A stretch of 55,571 nt of DNA from a virus (lineage: Duplodnaviria; Caudoviricetes). The notes under the pieces were generated by a model that was given only the letters and a program-made list of their open reading frames with translations, was not told the DNA's origin and searched no databases. Both the position numbers and the translations under genes were made by a program. Each line of letters begins with the position of its first letter. Positions within the stretch are counted from its first letter, which is position 1. Below are positions 39,816-54,962 of this stretch, one piece after another. The stretch is from IMG/VR virus record IMGVR_UViG_3300049924_000170, positions 1 through 55,571 of that record; one strand, written 5' to 3'.

Positions 39816-39831
39816 AGCAGTTTTTATGCCG
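39816..39831 (-). promoter_or_regulatory. Sigma54-type promoter (probably leaderless)
   Basis: CGGCATAAAAACTGCT, canonical GG-N10-GC spacing, ~12 nt before ATG 39803. Confidence 0.55.
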
Positions 39832-41434: not shown

Positions 41435-41463
41435 AATATACTATATAAATTGCTTACTGTCTA
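41435..41463 (-). promoter_or_regulatory. Sigma70-type promoter for the ncRNA
   Basis: TAGACA-N17-TATATT, 7 nt before the first G of the RNA stem. Confidence 0.55.
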
Positions 41464-42183
41464 CATATTGAAAAGTAGATTGGCAGGCACATCTGTGTAA
41501 GCAGGAATACCTGAAGATGTAGGGCCAGAAATTTGTAGCTTCAAGGCAATTTGCGTCAAAGGACCTTGAAAGTACAGCACGTTTATTTTATTTAATCCCT
41601 TGTACAATAAAGTTGGAGAACTTGAATCCCAGGTTGGGGCATGTAATGTGTCACTGTTAATTAAAGCCACACTATTAATTGCAAGTCTAACGTTGTCATC
41701 AGAGAGTACTCTGAAATTATACATATTTGACACGGGAATGTTGATGTAGCCTGCACAATCTAGCGCGTAGTCCTCTGTACCTATAAGTAACTGTTCTGCA
41801 GCTGTAAATTTTGGAAAGCCGAGGGCAGCTTGTGAGTCTCCAACATCAAACAGGTTAATTACTTTCGTGAATTTTGGAACTGCGTTTGCCAGGATAGAAA
41901 TTAATCCATTATTGCGATTTACAGACGCTACATCATATACTGAACAGACTAAGCCAGACTTTAAAGTCAAGTCGCGACCGTCAAGTCCGTTGGCACCATT
42001 AAATACGTCTGATGACGTTCCATCTGTACAGTTTATACGCGCTCCATAATTAGTAGTAACTGTTGTGCAGCTAGTACCAGGAGTACCAGCAGGTCCTTGG
42101 GGCCCGGATTTCTGAGTGGTAAAAGTGGTGCGAGCGCAGCCAGTAGCTATTAGTAGTGCTAAAACTGTTAATTGAACTTTCAT
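41461..42183 (-). CDS. Lipoprotein with collagen-like linker and PA14 domain
   Basis: Lipobox IATGC, GPQGPAGTPG, GYINIP...YNFRVLSDDNVRLAIN...H...L.KG.N.I...YFQG. Confidence 0.8.
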   Translation of the reverse strand: MKVQLTVLALLIATGCARTTFTTQKSGPQGPAGTPGTSCTTVTTNYGARINCTDGTSSDVFNGANGLDGRDLTLKSGLVCSVYDVASVNRNNGLISILANAVPKFTKVINLFDVGDSQAALGFPKFTAAEQLLIGTEDYALDCAGYINIPVSNMYNFRVLSDDNVRLAINSVALINSDTLHAPTWDSSSPTLLYKGLNKINVLYFQGPLTQIALKLQISGPTSSGIPAYTDVPANLLFNM

Positions 42184-42221: not shown

Positions 42222-42237
42222 AGCATATTGAGTGCCA
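42222..42237 (-). promoter_or_regulatory. Sigma54-type promoter of PA14 lipoprotein
   Basis: TGGCACTCAATATGCT, 38 nt before ATG with AAGGAG RBS. Confidence 0.7.
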
Positions 42238-44506: not shown

Positions 44507-44690
44507 TGTCCTTCTCCTGTATTAATATTAATTGTCTTTTCCATTTTGTAAAGCTTTTCTTATCTTTAAATAGAGCGGTTTCTTCTATTTTTGTAGTAGA
44601 CCCTCGGCCTTTGTAAGACAGTTTAGTCTTTTTGTATATCAGGTCTATTTGGGCACGGCATACTAACATTGCATCATTTATACTTCTCAT
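44499..44690 (-). CDS. Hypothetical protein
   Basis: AGGAG RBS. Confidence 0.55.
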   Translation of the reverse strand: MRSINDAMLVCRAQIDLIYKKTKLSYKGRGSTTKIEETALFKDKKSFTKWKRQLILIQEKDNE

Positions 44691-45180
44691 TTAAACTCCT
44701 AACTTTCATACATTGTATAGCGTTTCTATAATGAGTTTTTGTAGACTCGTAGCTTCTATTGCGTAGTTTGGCTATTTCAGGAACTGTTAGTCCTGACAAT
44801 ACTAAGCTGATTACTTCGTACTGCATAGGCTTACGTAATTTTATATCTTCTAACCAGTCTTGTAAGAATTTAGTCTTATCTTTACTGGCATCAGTTTCGT
44901 TTATATGTGCTAGATAATCTTGATAATTTGTATCGTCTTCAAATTCATCTACAAGTACTTCTCTTTTTTGTTTATTGAACTGTCTTTTATAAAAATTGTG
45001 CATACTAGTATTGAAGTAGCTGTTAGGATTTTCAGTAAGTACTCCGCTTTCAAGACTGAGTAGTAGTAAGTGCTGTAAGGAGTCTTCTCCGCGTGCAGTA
45101 TCTCTCATAATACCTTTGGCAGCTTTGCTATACTTTGCGTAGTTGTCAACTATATGTTGAGATAAATTTATAGTACGCAT
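44674..45180 (-). CDS. ECF-type sigma70 factor
   Basis: Region-2-like GEDSLQHLLL...SYF..SMHN; region-4 HTH GLTVPEIAKLRNRSYESTKTHYRNA. Confidence 0.75.
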   Translation of the reverse strand: MRTINLSQHIVDNYAKYSKAAKGIMRDTARGEDSLQHLLLLSLESGVLTENPNSYFNTSMHNFYKRQFNKQKREVLVDEFEDDTNYQDYLAHINETDASKDKTKFLQDWLEDIKLRKPMQYEVISLVLSGLTVPEIAKLRNRSYESTKTHYRNAIQCMKVRSLNEKYK

Positions 45181-45497
45181 TAGTGTAAGTATCCTGGTTG
45201 TGCACCGTCTAGCAAAGCTAAAAAGTTTGGGTCTGCATGTTTAGCAAGTAATTTGTCAGCGTTGTCAGCTAAAAATCCATCAATAGCTTCATCAACATCA
45301 CGCATGATAGTTTCTTGTTCATCATGACTTAATGTAGATATGTCTAAGTTAGTGTCTGTTCCTGTATCATCGATATAAAACAGTTGTATGTCACTAACGT
45401 CGAAGTCATAGTCAGGTCCAGCAAGCTCCACCACTTCTACTGTAAAGTCTGCAAATACGTTGTCAGTAACTTGGACTGAATAACTAATTGTTCTCAT
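45180..45497 (-). CDS. Acidic hypothetical protein
   Basis: AAGGAG RBS; very Asp/Glu rich. Confidence 0.65.
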   Translation of the reverse strand: MRTISYSVQVTDNVFADFTVEVVELAGPDYDFDVSDIQLFYIDDTGTDTNLDISTLSHDEQETIMRDVDEAIDGFLADNADKLLAKHADPNFLALLDGAQPGYLH

Positions 45498-45524: not shown

Positions 45525-45540
45525 TGCAAGTACGCTGCCA
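45525..45540 (-). promoter_or_regulatory. Sigma54-type promoter of the ECF-sigma/LuxR operon
   Basis: TGGCAGCGTACTTGCA, 27 nt before ATG 45497. Confidence 0.75.
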
Positions 45541-45870
45541 GTCTTATAAGCTGTATAGTACTTTTAAGCTTTATAAACTGTACAGACTATTGACAAATGT
45601 AAGCGCTAAATGTCACTGTCGGTCTAATCTGATAAATCCTTGTATATGTCACGGTACCATTCTTCTCCGTATTGGTCGGACCAGACGGTATACTGGACGC
45701 CCCTGTCATCTTTATAGACAGTTTCAGTAACCCACTTGCCTTGGTCGGTAAGCTCTTTTACACTTACTACTTCATCTCGCATTTATCGGCCCCCCCTTTC
45801 AGGGAAAAAATAGTTTACCAGAATCATTGCTACTATGAAAGTTATTACTATAAGCATATAAAATATATAT

Positions 45871-45886
45871 TGCAAGTGACGGGCCA
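45871..45886 (-). promoter_or_regulatory. Sigma54-type site
   Basis: TGGCCCGTCACTTGCA. Confidence 0.65.
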
Positions 45887-45977
45887 GCGTTATAAGTAAC
45901 CTGCAGCGACTGGCAGTGTGCTACCTGTCTACCTACTTTACACTGTATGCCGTAAATTGTCACTGCGCAGTTTCCCC

Positions 45978-46015
45978 GTCTCTAAATGAGACTGTTAAGC
46001 GTCTCAGTCTAATAC
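45978..46015. promoter_or_regulatory. Two enhancer(UAS)-like 15-bp imperfect palindromes
   Basis: GTCTCTAAATGAGAC (45978) and GTCTCAGTCTAATAC (46001). Confidence 0.5.
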
Positions 46016-46029
46016 AGCTCCAGGTTACT

Positions 46030-46276
46030 TGGCACGCTTTGTGCATGTAATAAGTAGTGGCACGTAGTTTGATTAGTAATAGCGGCGTCGCGCCAGCGTG
46101 CAAGAAATGTGCCAGACAAAGTAGCGCTGCGTCCACGCTGCAAGAATTGTACCAAGTGACTTGCCGGTCTTGACAGTCTGCAAGTTACCTGCCAGTCCAA
46201 GCGGTCCCTGCAAGTTTAATGCCAAGGACAAGGCGGACTGCAAGTCTTATGCCGCTTATTGGGCATGAATATTGCA
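46030..46276. repeat. Array of eight sigma54 -24/-12 boxes
   Basis: +46030 TGGCACGCTTTGTGCA, +46058 TGGCACGTAGTTTGAT, -46099 TGGCACATTTCTTGCA, -46139 TGGTACAATTCTTGCA, -46179 TGGCAGGTAACTTGCA, -46209 TGGCATTAAACTTGCA, -46239 CGGCATAAGACTTGCA, +46261 GGGCATGAATATTGCA. Confidence 0.8.
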
Positions 46277-46295
46277 GCGCTGCGCGCAAGCGTGT

Positions 46296-46997
46296 CTAGT
46301 ATTTAGCTTCCTTGTGCTTTAGATTGACAGACAGTCCCAGCGGCCCTAACACGCTGTTATAATACTCATGGGTACCCTTTACGTCAAGGCCCATGAACTC
46401 GAAGACTTGCAAGTCCTGCGGCGTTAGTTCTCCATTTTGGTCAGTTATGTGCCACAGCCAGCAGTGGTTTAGCACCTTGCGTAGCTTATTGTAGGCCCAG
46501 TAGTGGCTTTTTGGCATGGATAAAGGATTGAAGTATGTGGGAAATGAGACGTTGGGATATGAGGACTGGAAAGACTGTTTGTCTCCTGAGACTGCCAGGG
46601 CTGCTATTGCTCTGTAATCTACTTGTTCCACATAACAGTGTAGTAGAAACAGTACAGATGCGTGATACGCACCATAACGAGACCTGCTGTTCCGTGTGTA
46701 CATGTAGTAATTTATATAGGTTTGTACGTACGACAGGGCCTGCGAGGGGTCGTGGAAGGACTCGAAGGACTTTTGAGGCTTGGAACCACGTAAAAACGGC
46801 GAGGACAGGCCGGCTAGACAGTCTGAAAAGGCTTCTATGTCTATGTGGCCCGAATTTTGCAGTTTTAAGTTCCATTCACTGAATAGTTGATTGACTTGTT
46901 CCAAGGTGTAGCCAGCTGGTACATGATAGCCTAAGCCTTCATAATGAGTTCTTGCCCCTGAAACGGTCGATGTAGGTTGTTTTCGCCGTCTTGTCAT
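46296..46997 (-). CDS. Hypothetical protein (relatively GC-rich)
   Basis: 233 aa ORF co-oriented with neighbours; no clear RBS. Confidence 0.6.
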   Translation of the reverse strand: MTRRRKQPTSTVSGARTHYEGLGYHVPAGYTLEQVNQLFSEWNLKLQNSGHIDIEAFSDCLAGLSSPFLRGSKPQKSFESFHDPSQALSYVQTYINYYMYTRNSRSRYGAYHASVLFLLHCYVEQVDYRAIAALAVSGDKQSFQSSYPNVSFPTYFNPLSMPKSHYWAYNKLRKVLNHCWLWHITDQNGELTPQDLQVFEFMGLDVKGTHEYYNSVLGPLGLSVNLKHKEAKY

Positions 46998-47649: not shown

Positions 47650-48003
47650 CTATTCTACTATATAGTATTGACCGTTTATTAAGCTGTAAGCTTCTGAATT
47701 AATTGCTACATCTTTAGATACTTTTACAAGCTGTGTACCTATCTTGAGGTCAGGTCTTCTGTCTGAGAAGACTAAAGATGCTGAGTTGTCTGTTAACACT
47801 AATATACTATCTTGATTGAACTTATATGCGATATCTAAAACTAAACTGTAATTTGAAATGTCTGTCATGATTGAAGTCTCTTCAACTCCTTTGTATGCAC
47901 CTTGTATTATTTGTCCGTTAACTAATTTGTTTATAAGTCTGTACATGTTCATTGAAACTTTGTTATTATCAGTGTCCAAGCTAAACATTATTTTGTTTTT
48001 CAT
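47650..48003 (-). CDS. Possible SAM lyase/hydrolase-like early protein
   Basis: QGAYKGVEETS...IAYKFNQDSILV resembles the G.Y.G..E.S / F.Q.SIL motifs of phage SAMases. Confidence 0.45.
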   Translation of the reverse strand: MKNKIMFSLDTDNNKVSMNMYRLINKLVNGQIIQGAYKGVEETSIMTDISNYSLVLDIAYKFNQDSILVLTDNSASLVFSDRRPDLKIGTQLVKVSKDVAINSEAYSLINGQYYIVE

Positions 48004-48311: not shown

Positions 48312-48327
48312 TTCAAGTCTTGTGCCG
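48312..48327 (-). promoter_or_regulatory. Sigma54-type promoter (TTGA variant)
   Basis: CGGCACAAGACTTGAA, with conserved upstream element 43 bp away. Confidence 0.6.
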
Positions 48328-48403
48328 ACTCGTAAACAATACATAGTATTTGAAACTGTATTAAGAATGAAAGTGACATTTTTTGTTATACAGTGTAAAA
48401 AGC

Positions 48404-49538: not shown

Positions 49539-49554
49539 TTCAACAGTTGTGCCA
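49539..49554 (-). promoter_or_regulatory. Sigma54-type promoter (TTGA variant)
   Basis: TGGCACAACTGTTGAA; same upstream element at the same 43 bp distance as the 48312 site. Confidence 0.65.
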
Positions 49555-49749
49555 CTTTATAAGCTTTATAACCTACTTGAAAGCTTAAAAAGATTAAAAG
49601 TGACATTTTACGCTTTACAGTGACCAAGTCCTAAACAGTATTATCTGCCAAACCTCTTATAACGTCCTAAATTTGGCACGGTTTACCTAATAGGAAGGTG
49701 TATGAGCCTTAAAACTCAAAGCTCCTTATATATAGGAGCAATTTTCTGG

Positions 49750-49872
49750 CGTCTCATTTTGATACGTATTAAACTGATTATCTCAGAGTGGTACGTCTCG
49801 TTCTAAGTCGTCTCATTTTGATACAGTCTACCACGTTCGACTTAAAAACTAACATATATTCGACTTAAAAAC
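49750..49872. repeat. Direct repeats in divergent control region
   Basis: CGTCTCATTTTGATAC at 49750 and 49809; TTCGACTTAAAAAC at 49836 and 49859. Confidence 0.8.
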
Positions 49873-50046
49873 GAAATGCGGTCGCCTAATTTTTTTCCGG
49901 ATTTGGAACTCAAATTTTAGGAAAAGACAATTGACCTGGCAAAATCTAAAAACTGTCTAAAAATATGATTTCTCCCCAGACTTTACAGCAGCTGGTCAAT
50001 TTCTATACAATAACCTGAATTAAAAGGCCTTGTGGTAGAAATGGTC

Positions 50047-50062
50047 TGGCACGCTATCTGCT
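50047..50062 (+). promoter_or_regulatory. Sigma54-type promoter of transglycosylase gene
   Basis: TGGCACGCTATCTGCT, 26 nt before ATG with AAGGAG RBS. Confidence 0.75.
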
Positions 50063-50088: not shown

Positions 50089-50592
50089 ATGAATAAACTG
50101 TTATTAATCGCTTTCTTTATCTGGATAGCTTTTACTGCTTACTTTGTAGACCAGTTGAATCGCATACCCTTACAAGTACCTACAGTGCTTCCAGAGCTAG
50201 AGGAACAGGTTGAATCTAGGTCAGACCAGGATAAACTAATAGACAACGTAGCGGCCCAATACGGCTTAGATAAACAGTTATTCCACTGTGTGTTACAGGT
50301 CGAGTCTAATAAACGCCTAGGGGCTGTTAACGAGCTTACTGGCGACTATGGCATTGGGCAGATAAACAGTAAGTCCTGGAAGAAATTTGACACTAACCGC
50401 CTTACAACGGACTTACAGTACTCCTTAAACGCTTCAGCTGAAGTGTTATCATTTTATAAACAGTTAAAGCAGCAGGACGAACCTCGCCAATGGGCCTGCC
50501 GATACAACGTAGGACCTGGACCTTTAACTCAACGTAACCGGGCTTACAACTGCGAGATTTACCTGGAAAAGCTGTCGAGCTGCCTAAAATAG
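50089..50592 (+). CDS. Membrane-anchored lytic transglycosylase (SLT family)
   Basis: N-terminal TM; VES (catalytic Glu), DYGIGQIN and RYN motifs. Confidence 0.85.
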   Translation: MNKLLLIAFFIWIAFTAYFVDQLNRIPLQVPTVLPELEEQVESRSDQDKLIDNVAAQYGLDKQLFHCVLQVESNKRLGAVNELTGDYGIGQINSKSWKKFDTNRLTTDLQYSLNASAEVLSFYKQLKQQDEPRQWACRYNVGPGPLTQRNRAYNCEIYLEKLSSCLK

Positions 50593-50947
50593 TATACCAG
50601 CGTGTACCAGTAGGTGGTATAGTGCTTTCTTTAGTAATTACAATAGCTTGCGCAACTTTATACCACTATACCACCAAAATCAACATTACACGCTATATTT
50701 TGCATACAATATGCGCCATATGCACCACAATGCTTATAAGCACCAAACACGAATTCTGGCTGGGAATATGAAAAACAGTGGTATAGTGGTATAATCTATT
50801 AAATAGTCTATATAGTACTTAAAAGTACTTATAAAGCATCTGGTTACCAAGTCTCCTATAATGCTCATTAATTGTACCACCTCTACTGGTATACTGGTGG
50901 TATACGCGGTACAAAGTTGTACCAGTTGTACCAGTCATTGTACCAGT
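50593..50947. repeat. Iteron cluster, putative replication origin
   Basis: About 13 T(A/G)TACCA heptamers in both orientations; perfect 17-bp inverted repeat 50658-50674 / 50778-50794. Confidence 0.7.
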
Positions 50948-51021
50948 GACTTTTTAGGCTAACAGTTGACTAAACAGTAAGCAATTTAAGTAGTCTAACT
51001 GGTCTTAAAAGCGTTATAAAC

Positions 51022-51037
51022 TGGCCCTCTACTTGCT
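51022..51037 (+). promoter_or_regulatory. Sigma54-type promoter
   Basis: TGGCCCTCTACTTGCT upstream of rightward small-gene cluster. Confidence 0.65.
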
Positions 51038-54596: not shown

Positions 54597-54874
54597 ACTT
54601 CGTAGATGCAGCTTCGCACTATATCAACAAAGCACTTAAGCGTATCCAAATAAACTTACGATTATCTATACTAGGACTACCTCCTCAATCTGGTTACGAA
54701 TCTAAACAAGAAGAGCCAAAAATAATGCTTATGTGCATAAAGCCTTATCATTACTCCAATGGAAATACTTGCAGAACTTTTAAATTTGGAGATAAAATAA
54801 TTGTAAAACGCTGGGAACGTACAGACGAATACAGTTTAGATAGAACGTATTTCAAGATAATAAGGAAACAGTAA
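54593..54874 (+). CDS. Hypothetical protein
   Basis: Coupled ORF, AGGAG RBS. Confidence 0.55.
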   Translation: MNFVDAASHYINKALKRIQINLRLSILGLPPQSGYESKQEEPKIMLMCIKPYHYSNGNTCRTFKFGDKIIVKRWERTDEYSLDRTYFKIIRKQ

Positions 54875-54946
54875 CAATTTACGCTAACACTTGACTAACA
54901 GTTAATCACTAACGGACCTTCCAGTCCGTTTTTAGCGTTTTAAGAC

Positions 54947-54962
54947 CGGCATATAGTATGCA
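54947..54962 (+). promoter_or_regulatory. Sigma54-type promoter of the Ala-rich gene/primase operon
   Basis: CGGCATATAGTATGCA, 23 nt before ATG 54986 (GGAGG RBS). Confidence 0.6.

What the first reader, a model, noticed from the sequence alone, without database searches (positions are those of the whole stretch)
46030..46276. Helically phased array of sigma54 (RpoN) binding boxes: candidate RNA-polymerase sponge or promoter battery
Seen: eight sites matching NGGYA-N7-TGCA (one TGAT variant) lie in 250 bp of gene-free DNA. The conserved positions are exactly the -24 GG and -12 TG(C) contacts, while the spacers differ, so this is not a simple tandem duplication. Five are co-oriented (-) and start at 46099, 46139, 46179, 46209 and 46239, i.e. 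40/40/30/30 bp apart (roughly whole helical turns). Three opposite-strand sites flank them. No convincing ORF lies downstream of the + sites, and the nearest - gene is ~600 bp away with its own site. Known: sigma54 holoenzyme binds -24/-12 sites as a stable closed complex without activator and covers roughly 30-40 bp. Inference: the array could load several holoenzymes side by side, acting as a DNA decoy that drains host sigma54-RNAP, a local reservoir for the phage's own sigma54 promoters, or an entry/termini-associated promoter battery. I know of no described phage element like this.
Basis: partly seen in the sequence, partly recalled or inferred. Interest (0 to 1): 0.88.

Follow-up and report, generated by a model that had tools for sequence, protein, structure and literature searches.

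The report
Clustered sigma-54-type promoter boxes in phage
A 250-base gene-free stretch of an uncultured freshwater phage carries eight copies of the DNA signal read by the bacterial sigma-54 RNA polymerase, the same signal sits in front of many of the phage's genes, and related phages have similar clusters, so it is most likely a multi-copy polymerase loading and promoter zone rather than a proven sponge.

Summary
Eight 16-mers matching TGGCAC-N5-TTGCA lie at 46030-46276: five on the minus strand, 40/40/30/30 bp apart, and three on the plus strand. Six of the genome's 14 near-perfect matches (at least 10 of 11 consensus positions; 0.98 expected) are in this array.

The motif is this phage's general promoter-like signal. 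Nine further copies sit 12-93 nt upstream of start codons, all co-oriented with the gene. Six of them carry a conserved 28-nt element at a fixed distance, a candidate enhancer.

Clusters of 2 to at least 12 copies occur in or near the control region between the two gene arms in 5 of 8 complete related genomes and in 3 fragments. Spacing (25-54 bp), copy number and orientation vary, so helical phasing is not conserved.

No phage gene for sigma-54 or an enhancer-binding ATPase was found, and no early protein tracks the motif. A host reader is therefore likely.

Best reading: a duplicated cluster of sigma-54-type core promoters acting as a polymerase loading zone. The sponge idea is untested. In this phage only, the five tandem cores are followed by GC-rich DNA, which keeps a poised, poorly firing reading alive. 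No RNA data exist and the host is unknown.

The parts
46239..46254 (-). tandem core 1, CGGCATAAGACTTGCA (9/11 of consensus)
46209..46224 (-). tandem core 2, TGGCATTAAACTTGCA (10/11)
46179..46194 (-). tandem core 3, TGGCAGGTAACTTGCA (10/11); aligns with a core of relative L001/G001
46139..46154 (-). tandem core 4, TGGTACAATTCTTGCA (10/11); aligns with the second core of L001/G001
46099..46114 (-). tandem core 5, TGGCACATTTCTTGCA, the only 11/11 match in the genome
46030..46045 (+). opposite-strand core, TGGCACGCTTTGTGCA (10/11), facing the tandem cores
46058..46073 (+). opposite-strand core, TGGCACGTAGTTTGAT (TTGAT variant)
46261..46276 (+). opposite-strand core, GGGCATGAATATTGCA, back to back with core 1 and pointing antisense into the 233-aa gene
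46296..46997 (-). 233-aa ORF (g233) of unknown family directly upstream of the array; syntenic with arrays in relatives
45938..45965 (-). 28-nt upstream element (candidate enhancer), 79 nt upstream (start to start) of core 45871 and 134-301 bp downstream of the tandem cores
45871..45886 (-). gene-proximal core, TGGCCCGTCACTTGCA, 13 nt before a 24-codon ORF
45783..45857 (-). 24-codon hydrophobic ORF; counterparts of 15 and 26 codons sit behind the equivalent core in L001 and L010
45591..45618 (-). 28-nt upstream element, 78 nt upstream of core 45525
45525..45540 (-). gene-proximal core 27 nt before the 105-aa ORF (45180-45497)
39816..39831 (-). gene-proximal core 12 nt before an ORF start
42222..42237 (-). 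gene-proximal core 38 nt before the PA14-domain ORF
48312..48327 (-). gene-proximal core (TTGAA variant) 34 nt before an ORF; inverted 28-nt element at 48371-48398
49539..49554 (-). first core of the minus arm (TTGAA variant), 93 nt before the ORF; inverted 28-nt element at 49598-49625
50047..50062 (+). first core of the plus arm, 26 nt before the SLT-domain ORF
51022..51037 (+). gene-proximal core found by the PWM and not used as a seed; 28-nt element at 50944-50971
54947..54962 (+). gene-proximal core 23 nt before an ORF; 28-nt element at 54869-54896; conserved in G001

Best explanation
The segment is a cluster of eight sigma-54 (-24/-12) type core promoter boxes. It was built by local duplication and sits at the head of the phage's long minus-strand (middle/late, structural) transcription unit.

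Shown by the sequence:
- The boxes match the sigma-54 consensus.
- The same box, extended by an AT-rich flank, stands 12-93 nt before nine genes and is co-oriented with each.
- Six of those nine carry a conserved 28-nt element at fixed distance.
- Related phages carry clusters of the box in or near the control region between their two gene arms.

Inferred:
- The cluster works as a multi-copy loading zone that raises the chance of capturing this scarce holoenzyme on phage DNA. Neighbouring copies act as alternatives rather than being occupied together.
- Firing needs an enhancer-binding activator that the phage does not visibly encode. That activator probably binds the 28-nt element 134-301 bp downstream of the tandem cores.
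- The three opposite-strand boxes would give antisense or other-arm transcripts.
For: - Motif anatomy and enrichment: 14 sites at 10/11 or better against 0.98 expected. Information peaks at GG and TGC, with a variable spacer. This matches the E. coli ChIP-seq motif, whose important positions are GG and TGC (PMC4591121 passages), and the E. coli pspA promoter TTGGCACGCAAATTGTAT.
- Promoter geometry: 9 of 9 gene-proximal sites are intergenic and co-oriented, 12-93 nt before starts. One of them (51022) was found by a PWM built without it.
- Upstream element: 6 hits in the window against 0.65 in shuffles. It lies 78/79/78/78 nt upstream (start to start) when co-oriented and at a 44/44-nt gap when inverted. 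Four orthologous copies occur in G001.
- Enrichment across the lineage, observed against shuffle mean: G000 17 against 2.3, G001 12 against 1.7, G002 19 against 4.5, G005 35 against 2.5, G006 24 against 2.8.
- Clusters in relatives: 5 of 8 complete genomes (G000, G001, G002, G005, G006) plus fragments L010, G010 and G012. They lie at the divergent point (G005, G006), directly before the portal/capsid arm (G002), or 1.2-3.3 kb inside the structural arm after g233 (G001, window).
- Host reader: no PF00158 and no PF04552 match in the window, and no PF00158 match over cut-off in 5 relatives. None of the 97 window ORFs is shared only by the array-bearing genomes, and the sigma-like 168-aa ORF has no match in the seven genomes compared.
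- Duplication dynamics: perfect 26-bp and 25-bp tandem copies occur in G006 and G012.
- Precedent: phage YuA uses a sigma-54-like promoter (PMC10914365 passage).
Against: - No RNA evidence exists. No transcription start is mapped and no RNA run holds the phage.
- The host is unknown, so the presence of rpoN and of a matching activator is unverified.
- No activator gene was found in the phage.
- Three of the eight boxes point the other way.
- G006, G010 and G005 have face-to-face pairs only 2-6 nt apart, and G006 and G012 have 25-26-bp periods. These arrangements are awkward for productive promoters and would suit a smaller or symmetric binder.
- In G012 the three copies face away from the capsid arm.
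- The array cores lack the AT-rich upstream flank (PWM scores 11-12 for the three that pass the threshold of 10, against 22-27 for gene-proximal sites).
- In this phage the 13 nt after the five tandem cores are 54-85% GC (mean 0.71), against 0-38% (mean 0.21) at the nine gene-proximal cores and 37% for the genome. That is a poor place to melt DNA.
- G003 and G004 show no enrichment.
Confidence: 0.5

Rival explanations
1. Non-productive holding array (sponge or reservoir). The tandem cores bind sigma-54 holoenzyme as closed complexes that rarely open. This drains the host pool or keeps polymerase near the phage's real promoters.
For: - The array cores are the best consensus matches in the genome.
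- They lack both the upstream flank and the 28-nt element of the gene-proximal promoters.
- In this phage they are followed by GC-rich DNA (mean 0.71 against 0.21).
- Orientation is mixed in all larger arrays.
- Decoy repeats that titrate factors are an established concept (PMC3322331 and PMC8599769, listing and abstract only). Decoy roles are discussed for non-canonical binding sites in PMC4591121 (passage).
Against: - The GC-rich trait is not conserved. Array sites of relatives average 0.32-0.51, close to the G+C of their source sequences.
- Spacings of 25-30 bp and face-to-face pairs make simultaneous holoenzyme occupancy unlikely (inference), so capacity per array would be small.
- The phage's own promoters would compete for the same pool.
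- No binding or titration data exist.
Confidence: 0.12
2. The boxes are not read by sigma-54. The 16-mer is the site of another sequence-specific protein (phage or host), and the array is an iteron-type nucleoprotein site: regulator bank, partition site, packaging site or injection-stop site. The adjacent g233 protein would be an obvious candidate binder.
For: - Face-to-face pairs form roughly 38-bp palindromes in G006, G010 and G005.
- Periods of 25-26 bp suit a small protein.
- g233 homologues lie next to arrays in the window, G001 and L010, and weakly in G002 and G005.
- G033 has a different repeat, GTTGCR-N5-GTTGCA, in its control region.
Against: - The two halves are never interchangeable. 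GG is present in 17 of 17 window sites and the second half is never GG. This is the sigma-54 asymmetry, not that of a direct-repeat reader.
- The motif stays at the universal sigma-54 consensus across relatives with 59-89% capsid identity, while early genes turn over completely.
- The gene-proximal copies keep promoter geometry.
- g233 has no detectable DNA-binding fold or family.
- By BLAST, g233 is absent from G006, which has the largest array.
Confidence: 0.15
3. Transcription-primed replication origin. Promoters in both orientations in a long non-coding stretch provide RNA primers or R-loops for a T7-like replisome. This is analogous to T7's primary origin with its tandem promoters (recalled, not checked in a paper).
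For: - The phage has a primase-helicase-like ORF, a family A DNA polymerase and a PD-(D/E)XK nuclease, but no recognisable initiator.
- The arrays lie at the inter-arm switch in G005 and G006.
- Both orientations are present.
Against: - In the window the cumulative GC-skew minimum is at about 50-52 kb, not 46 kb.
- A separate repeat cluster (TGGTATA/TGTACCAG) at 50585-50947 on the replication arm is a better iteron candidate.
- Nothing here tests replication.
Confidence: 0.08
4. Mostly redundant by-product. One or two cores are the working promoter, and the rest are slippage copies kept by drift, with no array-level function.
For: - Copy number ranges from 2 to at least 12 among relatives.
- Perfect recent tandem copies occur in G006 and G012.
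- G001 manages with two canonical copies where the window has five.
Against: - In the window the copies are old enough for linkers and spacers to have diverged, with no TRF signal. Yet all five keep at least 9 of 11 consensus positions, which points to selection on each core.
- Multi-copy clusters recur in eight examined relatives or fragments.
Confidence: 0.12

Closest known systems
Bacterial sigma-54 (RpoN) -24/-12 enhancer-dependent promoters
   Same: - The consensus TGGCAC-N5-TTGCW, with GG and GC exactly 10 bp apart.
- A variable spacer.
- Placement that leaves short leaders before start codons.
- A conserved element whose centre lies roughly 60-65 nt upstream of the core, i.e. about -85 to -90 from the predicted start. 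For comparison, the E. coli pspA upstream sites lie about 60-100 nt before its core.
   Different: - The boxes are in a virulent-looking phage genome.
- No enhancer-binding ATPase and no sigma-54 gene were found in the phage.
- The boxes occur as dense clusters of 2 to at least 12 copies in both orientations.
Sigma-54-like promoter of Pseudomonas phage YuA
   Same: A phage reported to depend on host sigma-70 and sigma-54, with one sigma-54-like promoter supported by a promoter trap and by start-site mapping (PMC10914365, one passage read).
   Different: YuA has a single promoter. No arrays are described in the passage read, and YuA is not related to this phage by any search done here.
Tandem early host-polymerase promoters of T7-like phages (A1, A2, A3) (recalled, no paper read)
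   Same: Several strong host-polymerase promoters in a row at the head of a long transcription unit near the leading part of the genome.
   Different: Those promoters are sigma-70 type, activator-independent, all co-oriented and roughly 100 bp apart. Here the boxes are -24/-12 type, 25-54 bp apart and of mixed orientation.
Decoy or titrating repeat arrays for transcription factors
   Same: Repeated high-affinity sites in non-coding DNA that could sequester a limiting factor (PMC3322331 and PMC8599769, listing and abstract).
   Different: The described cases are synthetic or cellular and concern transcription factors. No case with a sigma factor or a phage was found in the searches.
Widespread non-promoter sigma-54 binding sites in E. 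coli
   Same: Sigma-54 holoenzyme occupies many sites that are transcriptionally silent under the tested conditions, mostly sense-oriented inside genes (PMC4591121 abstract and passages). G005 shows 21 motif hits inside ORFs of at least 100 aa, 15 of them in the sense orientation.
   Different: The E. coli sites are single and dispersed, not arrays. That study found no roadblock effect.

Membership tests
sigma-54-dependent promoter | GG and GC doublets separated by exactly 10 bp, within TGGCAC-N5-TTGCW | tested here: met
   All 8 array sites match at least 9/11 consensus positions. 14 genome sites reach at least 10/11, against 0.98 in shuffles. Information peaks at GG and TGC. The consensus is recalled and is corroborated by the PMC4591121 passages and the pspA promoter.
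sigma-54-dependent promoter | Transcription starts about 11-13 nt downstream of the GC | not testable with these tools
   No RNA run holds the phage. The only indirect support is that the gene-proximal cores end 12-93 nt before start codons.
sigma-54-dependent promoter | Dependence on an enhancer-binding AAA+ activator with an upstream binding site | tested here: inconclusive
   A conserved 28-nt element lies at fixed distance from 6 of the 9 gene-proximal cores. No PF00158 match was found in the window or over cut-off in 5 relatives. None of the array cores has its own element.
sigma-54-dependent promoter | Bound by sigma-54 holoenzyme; the host has rpoN | not testable with these tools
   The host is unknown. 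The only genome hits of the capsid protein are two MAG contigs, labelled Elusimicrobiota and Bdellovibrionota.
tandem promoter battery | Copies co-oriented with, and upstream of, the transcription unit they drive | tested here: inconclusive
   Met for 5 of 8 sites in the window and for G001, G002 and L010. Orientation is mixed or face-to-face in G005, G006 and G010, and the copies point away from the capsid arm in G012.
helically phased binding array | Spacing in whole helical turns, conserved among relatives | tested here: not met
   The window has 40/40/30/30. Relatives have 40 (G001, G002), 37 and 26 (L010), 26, 39 and 44 (G006), 25 (G012) and 43, 44, 54 and 72 (G005).
DNA decoy or sponge | Sites bind the factor without productive output and measurably titrate it | not testable with these tools
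   Only indirect evidence exists: GC-rich DNA after the five tandem cores in this phage, a trait not conserved in relatives.
simple tandem repeat | Head-to-tail units alike over their whole length | tested here: not met
   TRF finds nothing at a minimum score of 30; only the cores and parts of the linkers are alike. The feature is met in relatives G006 (26-bp unit) and G012 (25-bp unit).

The most novel reading that the evidence does not exclude
The tandem cores are deliberately poor-melting parking sites that hold the host's scarce sigma-54 holoenzyme on phage DNA. They would act as both sink and reservoir. Host sigma-54 regulons (envelope-stress, motility and similar responses) would be starved, while the phage's enhancer-equipped promoters would be fed. 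The whole lineage would then run its programme on sigma-54 without encoding an activator of its own.
Probability: 0.12. Interest if true: 0.85.

Novelty: new variant of a known kind. Interest (0 to 1): 0.64.

Why it matters
Sigma-54 transcription is regarded as a tightly gated cellular system, and it has hardly been linked to lytic phage programmes. Here a whole uncultured phage lineage appears to place the sigma-54 box before its genes and to amplify it into clusters at its control region, yet it carries no recognisable activator.

If this is confirmed, several questions become testable:
- How a phage opens enhancer-dependent promoters: through a hijacked host activator, possibly one switched on by infection stress, or through a new phage factor.
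- Whether clustered closed-complex sites serve polymerase capture, timing or titration.

The result would also supply natural multi-copy sigma-54 sites for synthetic biology.

Tried and rejected
- RNA evidence: no RNA holder is listed for the region. I laid 4 of the 15 listed runs, all of them contigs. They were identical to the window, so they gave no variation, no ends and no strand information.
- TRF on 45800-46400 returned 0 rows.
- tRNA and Rfam scans of the whole window returned 0 hits.
- RNA folds of the array are not more stable than shuffles (z -0.39 for the minus strand, -1.86 for the plus strand). A structured RNA is rejected.
- DNA and protein searches of the cultured-phage collection gave no match for the region, g233 or the capsid protein. 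The portal gave one weak hit, and the DNA polymerase is 37% identical to that of a Flavobacterium phage.
- The sigma-like 168-aa ORF found no relative in IMG/VR.
- A strict two-site pattern across IMG/VR gave 10 hits. All are coding repeats and irrelevant.
- The same kind of pattern was run over 50 of the 80 capsid-related loci. 46 records were searched (4 are not held) and 2 matched. Most of these records are fragments covering 12-81% of a genome.
- g233 function remains unknown. The AlphaFold model has mean pLDDT 71.7. There is no PDB fold match (best E 0.9), no PDB sequence match, no Atlas hit, and no Pfam or PHROG family in any of 32 family members.
- PspF idea: the E. coli pspA upstream region shares only CGCTAAC and AATT with the 28-nt element. 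I estimate this is compatible with chance, so it is kept only as a lead.
- Host inference from the two MAG contigs is rejected as unreliable. SD-like motifs precede 61 of 96 crude ORFs, against 10% of random 15-mers. That only hints at a host that uses Shine-Dalgarno sites.
- Window ends: the two terminal ORFs are unrelated to each other, so there is no terminal redundancy.
- Sigma-70-like sites in 43.5-51 kb number 30, against 24.2 expected, which is not informative.
- Literature: searches found no description of sigma-54 box arrays in phages. Supplementary files were not opened (closed) and could hold promoter lists that bear on this.
Full report
**What the window is.** The 55,571-bp window is one complete IMG/VR virus record. 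It encodes a portal, a large terminase, a major head protein, an internal virion protein, a family A DNA polymerase, a primase-like protein and a PD-(D/E)XK nuclease. Genes form two arms. The plus-strand arm runs from 50089 across the contig end to 10952 and holds the replication genes. The minus-strand arm runs from 49445 down to 10949, with small early genes including a SAM lyase, then structural genes. Near-identical DNA occurs in freshwater and sediment metagenomes. No cultured phage is close, and the host is unknown.

**The observation.** On the minus strand the five tandem cores read CGGCATAAGACTTGCA, TGGCATTAAACTTGCA, TGGCAGGTAACTTGCA, TGGTACAATTCTTGCA and TGGCACATTTCTTGCA. They start 30, 30, 40 and 40 bp apart. 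Three cores lie on the plus strand, at 46030, 46058 and 46261. Seven of the genome's ten GGYA-N7-TGCA matches fall in this 250 bp (3.38 expected genome-wide). Against the 11 specified positions of TGGCAC-N5-TTGCW, 14 sites reach 10/11 or better, where shuffles give 0.98. Six of the 14 are in the array. Contigs from three other runs reproduce the stretch without a difference. TRF sees no repeat. The linkers of units 1/2 and 4/5 are still recognisably alike, so the array is an old, diverged duplication in which the cores have been kept.

**The same box is a gene-proximal signal.**
- A relaxed pattern and a PWM built from gene-proximal copies find nine further sites: 39816, 42222, 45525, 45871, 48312 and 49539 on the minus strand, and 50047, 51022 and 54947 on the plus strand.
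- All nine are intergenic and co-oriented with the next gene, and they end 12-93 nt before its start codon. Site 51022 was not among the PWM seeds.
- If transcription starts about 11 nt after the box, as the E. coli sigma-54 study assumes (19 bp from the motif centre; PMC4591121 passage), these sites would give leaders of roughly 1 to 80 nt that contain the Shine-Dalgarno sequences. This geometry fits a -24/-12 promoter. It does not fit an activator site at -35.
- Information content peaks at GG and TGC and the spacer is free. These are the positions that paper calls important.
- The two halves are never interchangeable: GG is present in 17 of 17 window sites. That argues against a reader of simple direct repeats.

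**A composite promoter module.** Six of the nine gene-proximal cores carry a 28-nt element with consensus cAGTGACAwTTTACGCtaACAgtTGAC. The window has 6 hits, against 0.65 in shuffles. When co-oriented, the element starts 78, 79, 78 and 78 nt upstream of the core. When inverted, it leaves a gap of 44 and 44 nt. Four orthologous copies exist in relative G001. Position and fixed geometry are what an enhancer site for a sigma-54 activator would show, but that is inference. The array cores have neither this element nor the AT-rich flank (TTATAAGAC-like) of the gene-proximal cores. The three array cores that pass the PWM threshold of 10 score 11-12, against 22-27 for gene-proximal cores. The nearest element (45938-45965) lies 134-301 bp downstream of the tandem cores.

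**Relatives.**
- The adjacent 233-aa ORF (g233) has homologues at 38-85% identity.
- G001 (69% identity) has two canonical cores 40 bp apart plus degenerate ones at the same place.
- A metagenome contig whose g233 homologue is 34% identical (L010) has three co-oriented cores, spaced 37 and 26 bp, and one inverted core directly after that homologue. About 400 bp further on it has a core followed by a tiny hydrophobic ORF, as in the window.
- The capsid protein finds 177 IMG/VR relatives.
- In eight complete genomes the motif [TC]GGC-N8-TGC[AT] is enriched in five: G000 17 against 2.3, G001 12 against 1.7, G002 19 against 4.5, G005 35 against 2.5, G006 24 against 2.8. It is not enriched in G003 (2 against 2.6) or G004 (6 against 4.4), and only weakly in G033 (6 against 2.0).
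- G005 has nine cores in both orientations in its 600-bp divergent region.
- G006 has four forward cores and eight or more reverse cores, including at least five identical copies with a 26-bp period. That tandem run also produces the record's apparent terminal repeat.
- G002 has two cores 40 bp apart just before its portal/capsid arm.
- Fragment G010 has about 13 cores, including three face-to-face pairs 5-6 nt apart.
- Fragment G012 has three identical copies with a 25-bp period.
- The cluster is therefore a lineage trait located in or near the inter-arm control region. Copy number, spacing and orientation are fluid, and helical phasing is not conserved.

**Who reads the box.** The window has no match to the sigma-54 DNA-binding domain or to the sigma-54 activator ATPase domain. 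Five relatives have no activator match over the cut-off. tblastn of 97 window ORFs against seven relatives shows complete turnover of early genes. None of the 97 ORFs is shared only by array-bearing genomes, and the sigma-like 168-aa ORF has no match in any of the seven. The box nevertheless stays at the universal sigma-54 consensus across capsid identities of 59-89%. A host factor, meaning sigma-54 holoenzyme, is the economical reader. A precedent exists for single sigma-54-like promoters in phage YuA (PMC10914365 passage). My searches found no description of arrays.

**What the array does.** The best-supported reading is a duplicated cluster of core promoters, a polymerase loading zone at the head of the long structural arm. 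The majority of cores point into that arm in the window, G001, G002, L010 and G006. I infer that neighbours 25-40 bp apart, and face-to-face pairs, cannot all be occupied by holoenzyme at once. On that view the copies act as alternatives that raise capture probability rather than as a row of bound enzymes.

Several facts weigh against a plain battery:
- Orientation is mixed.
- Face-to-face pairs occur in G006, G010 and G005.
- In G012 the copies face away from the capsid arm.
- The array cores have no enhancer element of their own.
- In this phage the 13 nt after the five tandem cores are 54-85% GC, against 0-38% at the nine gene-proximal cores. The separation is complete, in a 37% GC genome.

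It is not conserved, however: array sites of relatives average 0.32-0.51.

E. coli data show that sigma-54 holoenzyme sits silently at many sites without acting as a roadblock (PMC4591121 passage). Other rivals cannot be excluded without experiments: a different protein ligand with g233 as candidate, a transcription-primed origin, and drift copies. They are scored in the rival explanations.

**Verdict.** Identifying the sites as sigma-54-type boxes is well supported by sequence, genomic placement and comparative data. Helical phasing and association with genome termini are not supported. The sponge is possible but unsupported. The finding is a new variant of known kinds (sigma-54 promoters, tandem promoter clusters). 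Its unresolved and interesting core is how a phage without an activator uses enhancer-dependent promoters, and why it multiplies them.

Noticed in passing
window 45591-45618(-), 45938-45965(-), 48371-48398(+), 49598-49625(+), 50944-50971(+), 54869-54896(+): A conserved 28-nt element (cAGTGACAwTTTACGCtaACAgtTGAC) lies at fixed distance from six sigma-54-type cores and has four orthologous copies in G001. It is a candidate enhancer or activator site. It shares only CGCTAAC and AATT with the E. coli pspA upstream region.
   Followed up: partly
window 50585-50947: A second dense repeat cluster: at least 12 copies of TGGTATA(G/C) or TGTACCAG in both orientations, including a 17-nt perfect inverted repeat. 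It sits on the replication arm just upstream of a promoter module and is a possible origin or operator bank.
   Followed up: partly
window 45783-45857(-); L001 5024-5071; L010 3779-3859: Tiny hydrophobic ORFs of 24, 15 and 26 codons start 13-16 nt after the equivalent sigma-54-type core in three relatives. This suggests a leaderless or near-leaderless membrane peptide.
   Followed up: partly
window 44674-45180(-): A 168-aa ORF resembling a sigma factor (phrog_1740, E 3.5e-9; weak LuxR/GerE-type helix-turn-helix at the C-terminus). It has no counterpart in any of the seven related genomes compared, so it is an accessory gene of this phage.
   Followed up: partly
window 49700-49900: The region between the two arms holds a perfect hairpin (49721-49739) flagged as terminator-like on both strands. 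It also holds two pairs of direct repeats, GTCTCATTTTGATAC (near 49750 and 49810) and TTCGACTTAAAAAC (near 49836 and 49860).
   Followed up: no
G006 1-127 and 57145-57271; G002 1-61 and 57155-57215: The 'direct terminal repeat' of G006 is the 26-bp tandem array itself, and G002's contig ends also fall in its array. These ends are probably assembly breaks in repeats, and the array copy numbers there are uncertain.
   Followed up: partly
G005, whole record: The motif has 35 hits against 2.5 expected. 21 of them lie inside ORFs of at least 100 aa, and 15 of those 21 are in the sense orientation. This recalls the sense-biased intragenic sigma-54 sites of E. coli.
   Followed up: no
G033 50580-50860: A 123-bp repeat unit with three copies of GTTGCR-N5-GTTGCA lies in this relative's 1.5-kb non-coding control region, beside two isolated canonical sigma-54-type boxes (50206+, 51044-).
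   Followed up: no
window 47650-48003(-) and 41461-42183(-): An early SAM lyase family ORF (PF23780, E 7e-12), likely anti-restriction, and a PA14-domain ORF (E 2.1e-10) that stands behind its own sigma-54-type core.
   Followed up: no
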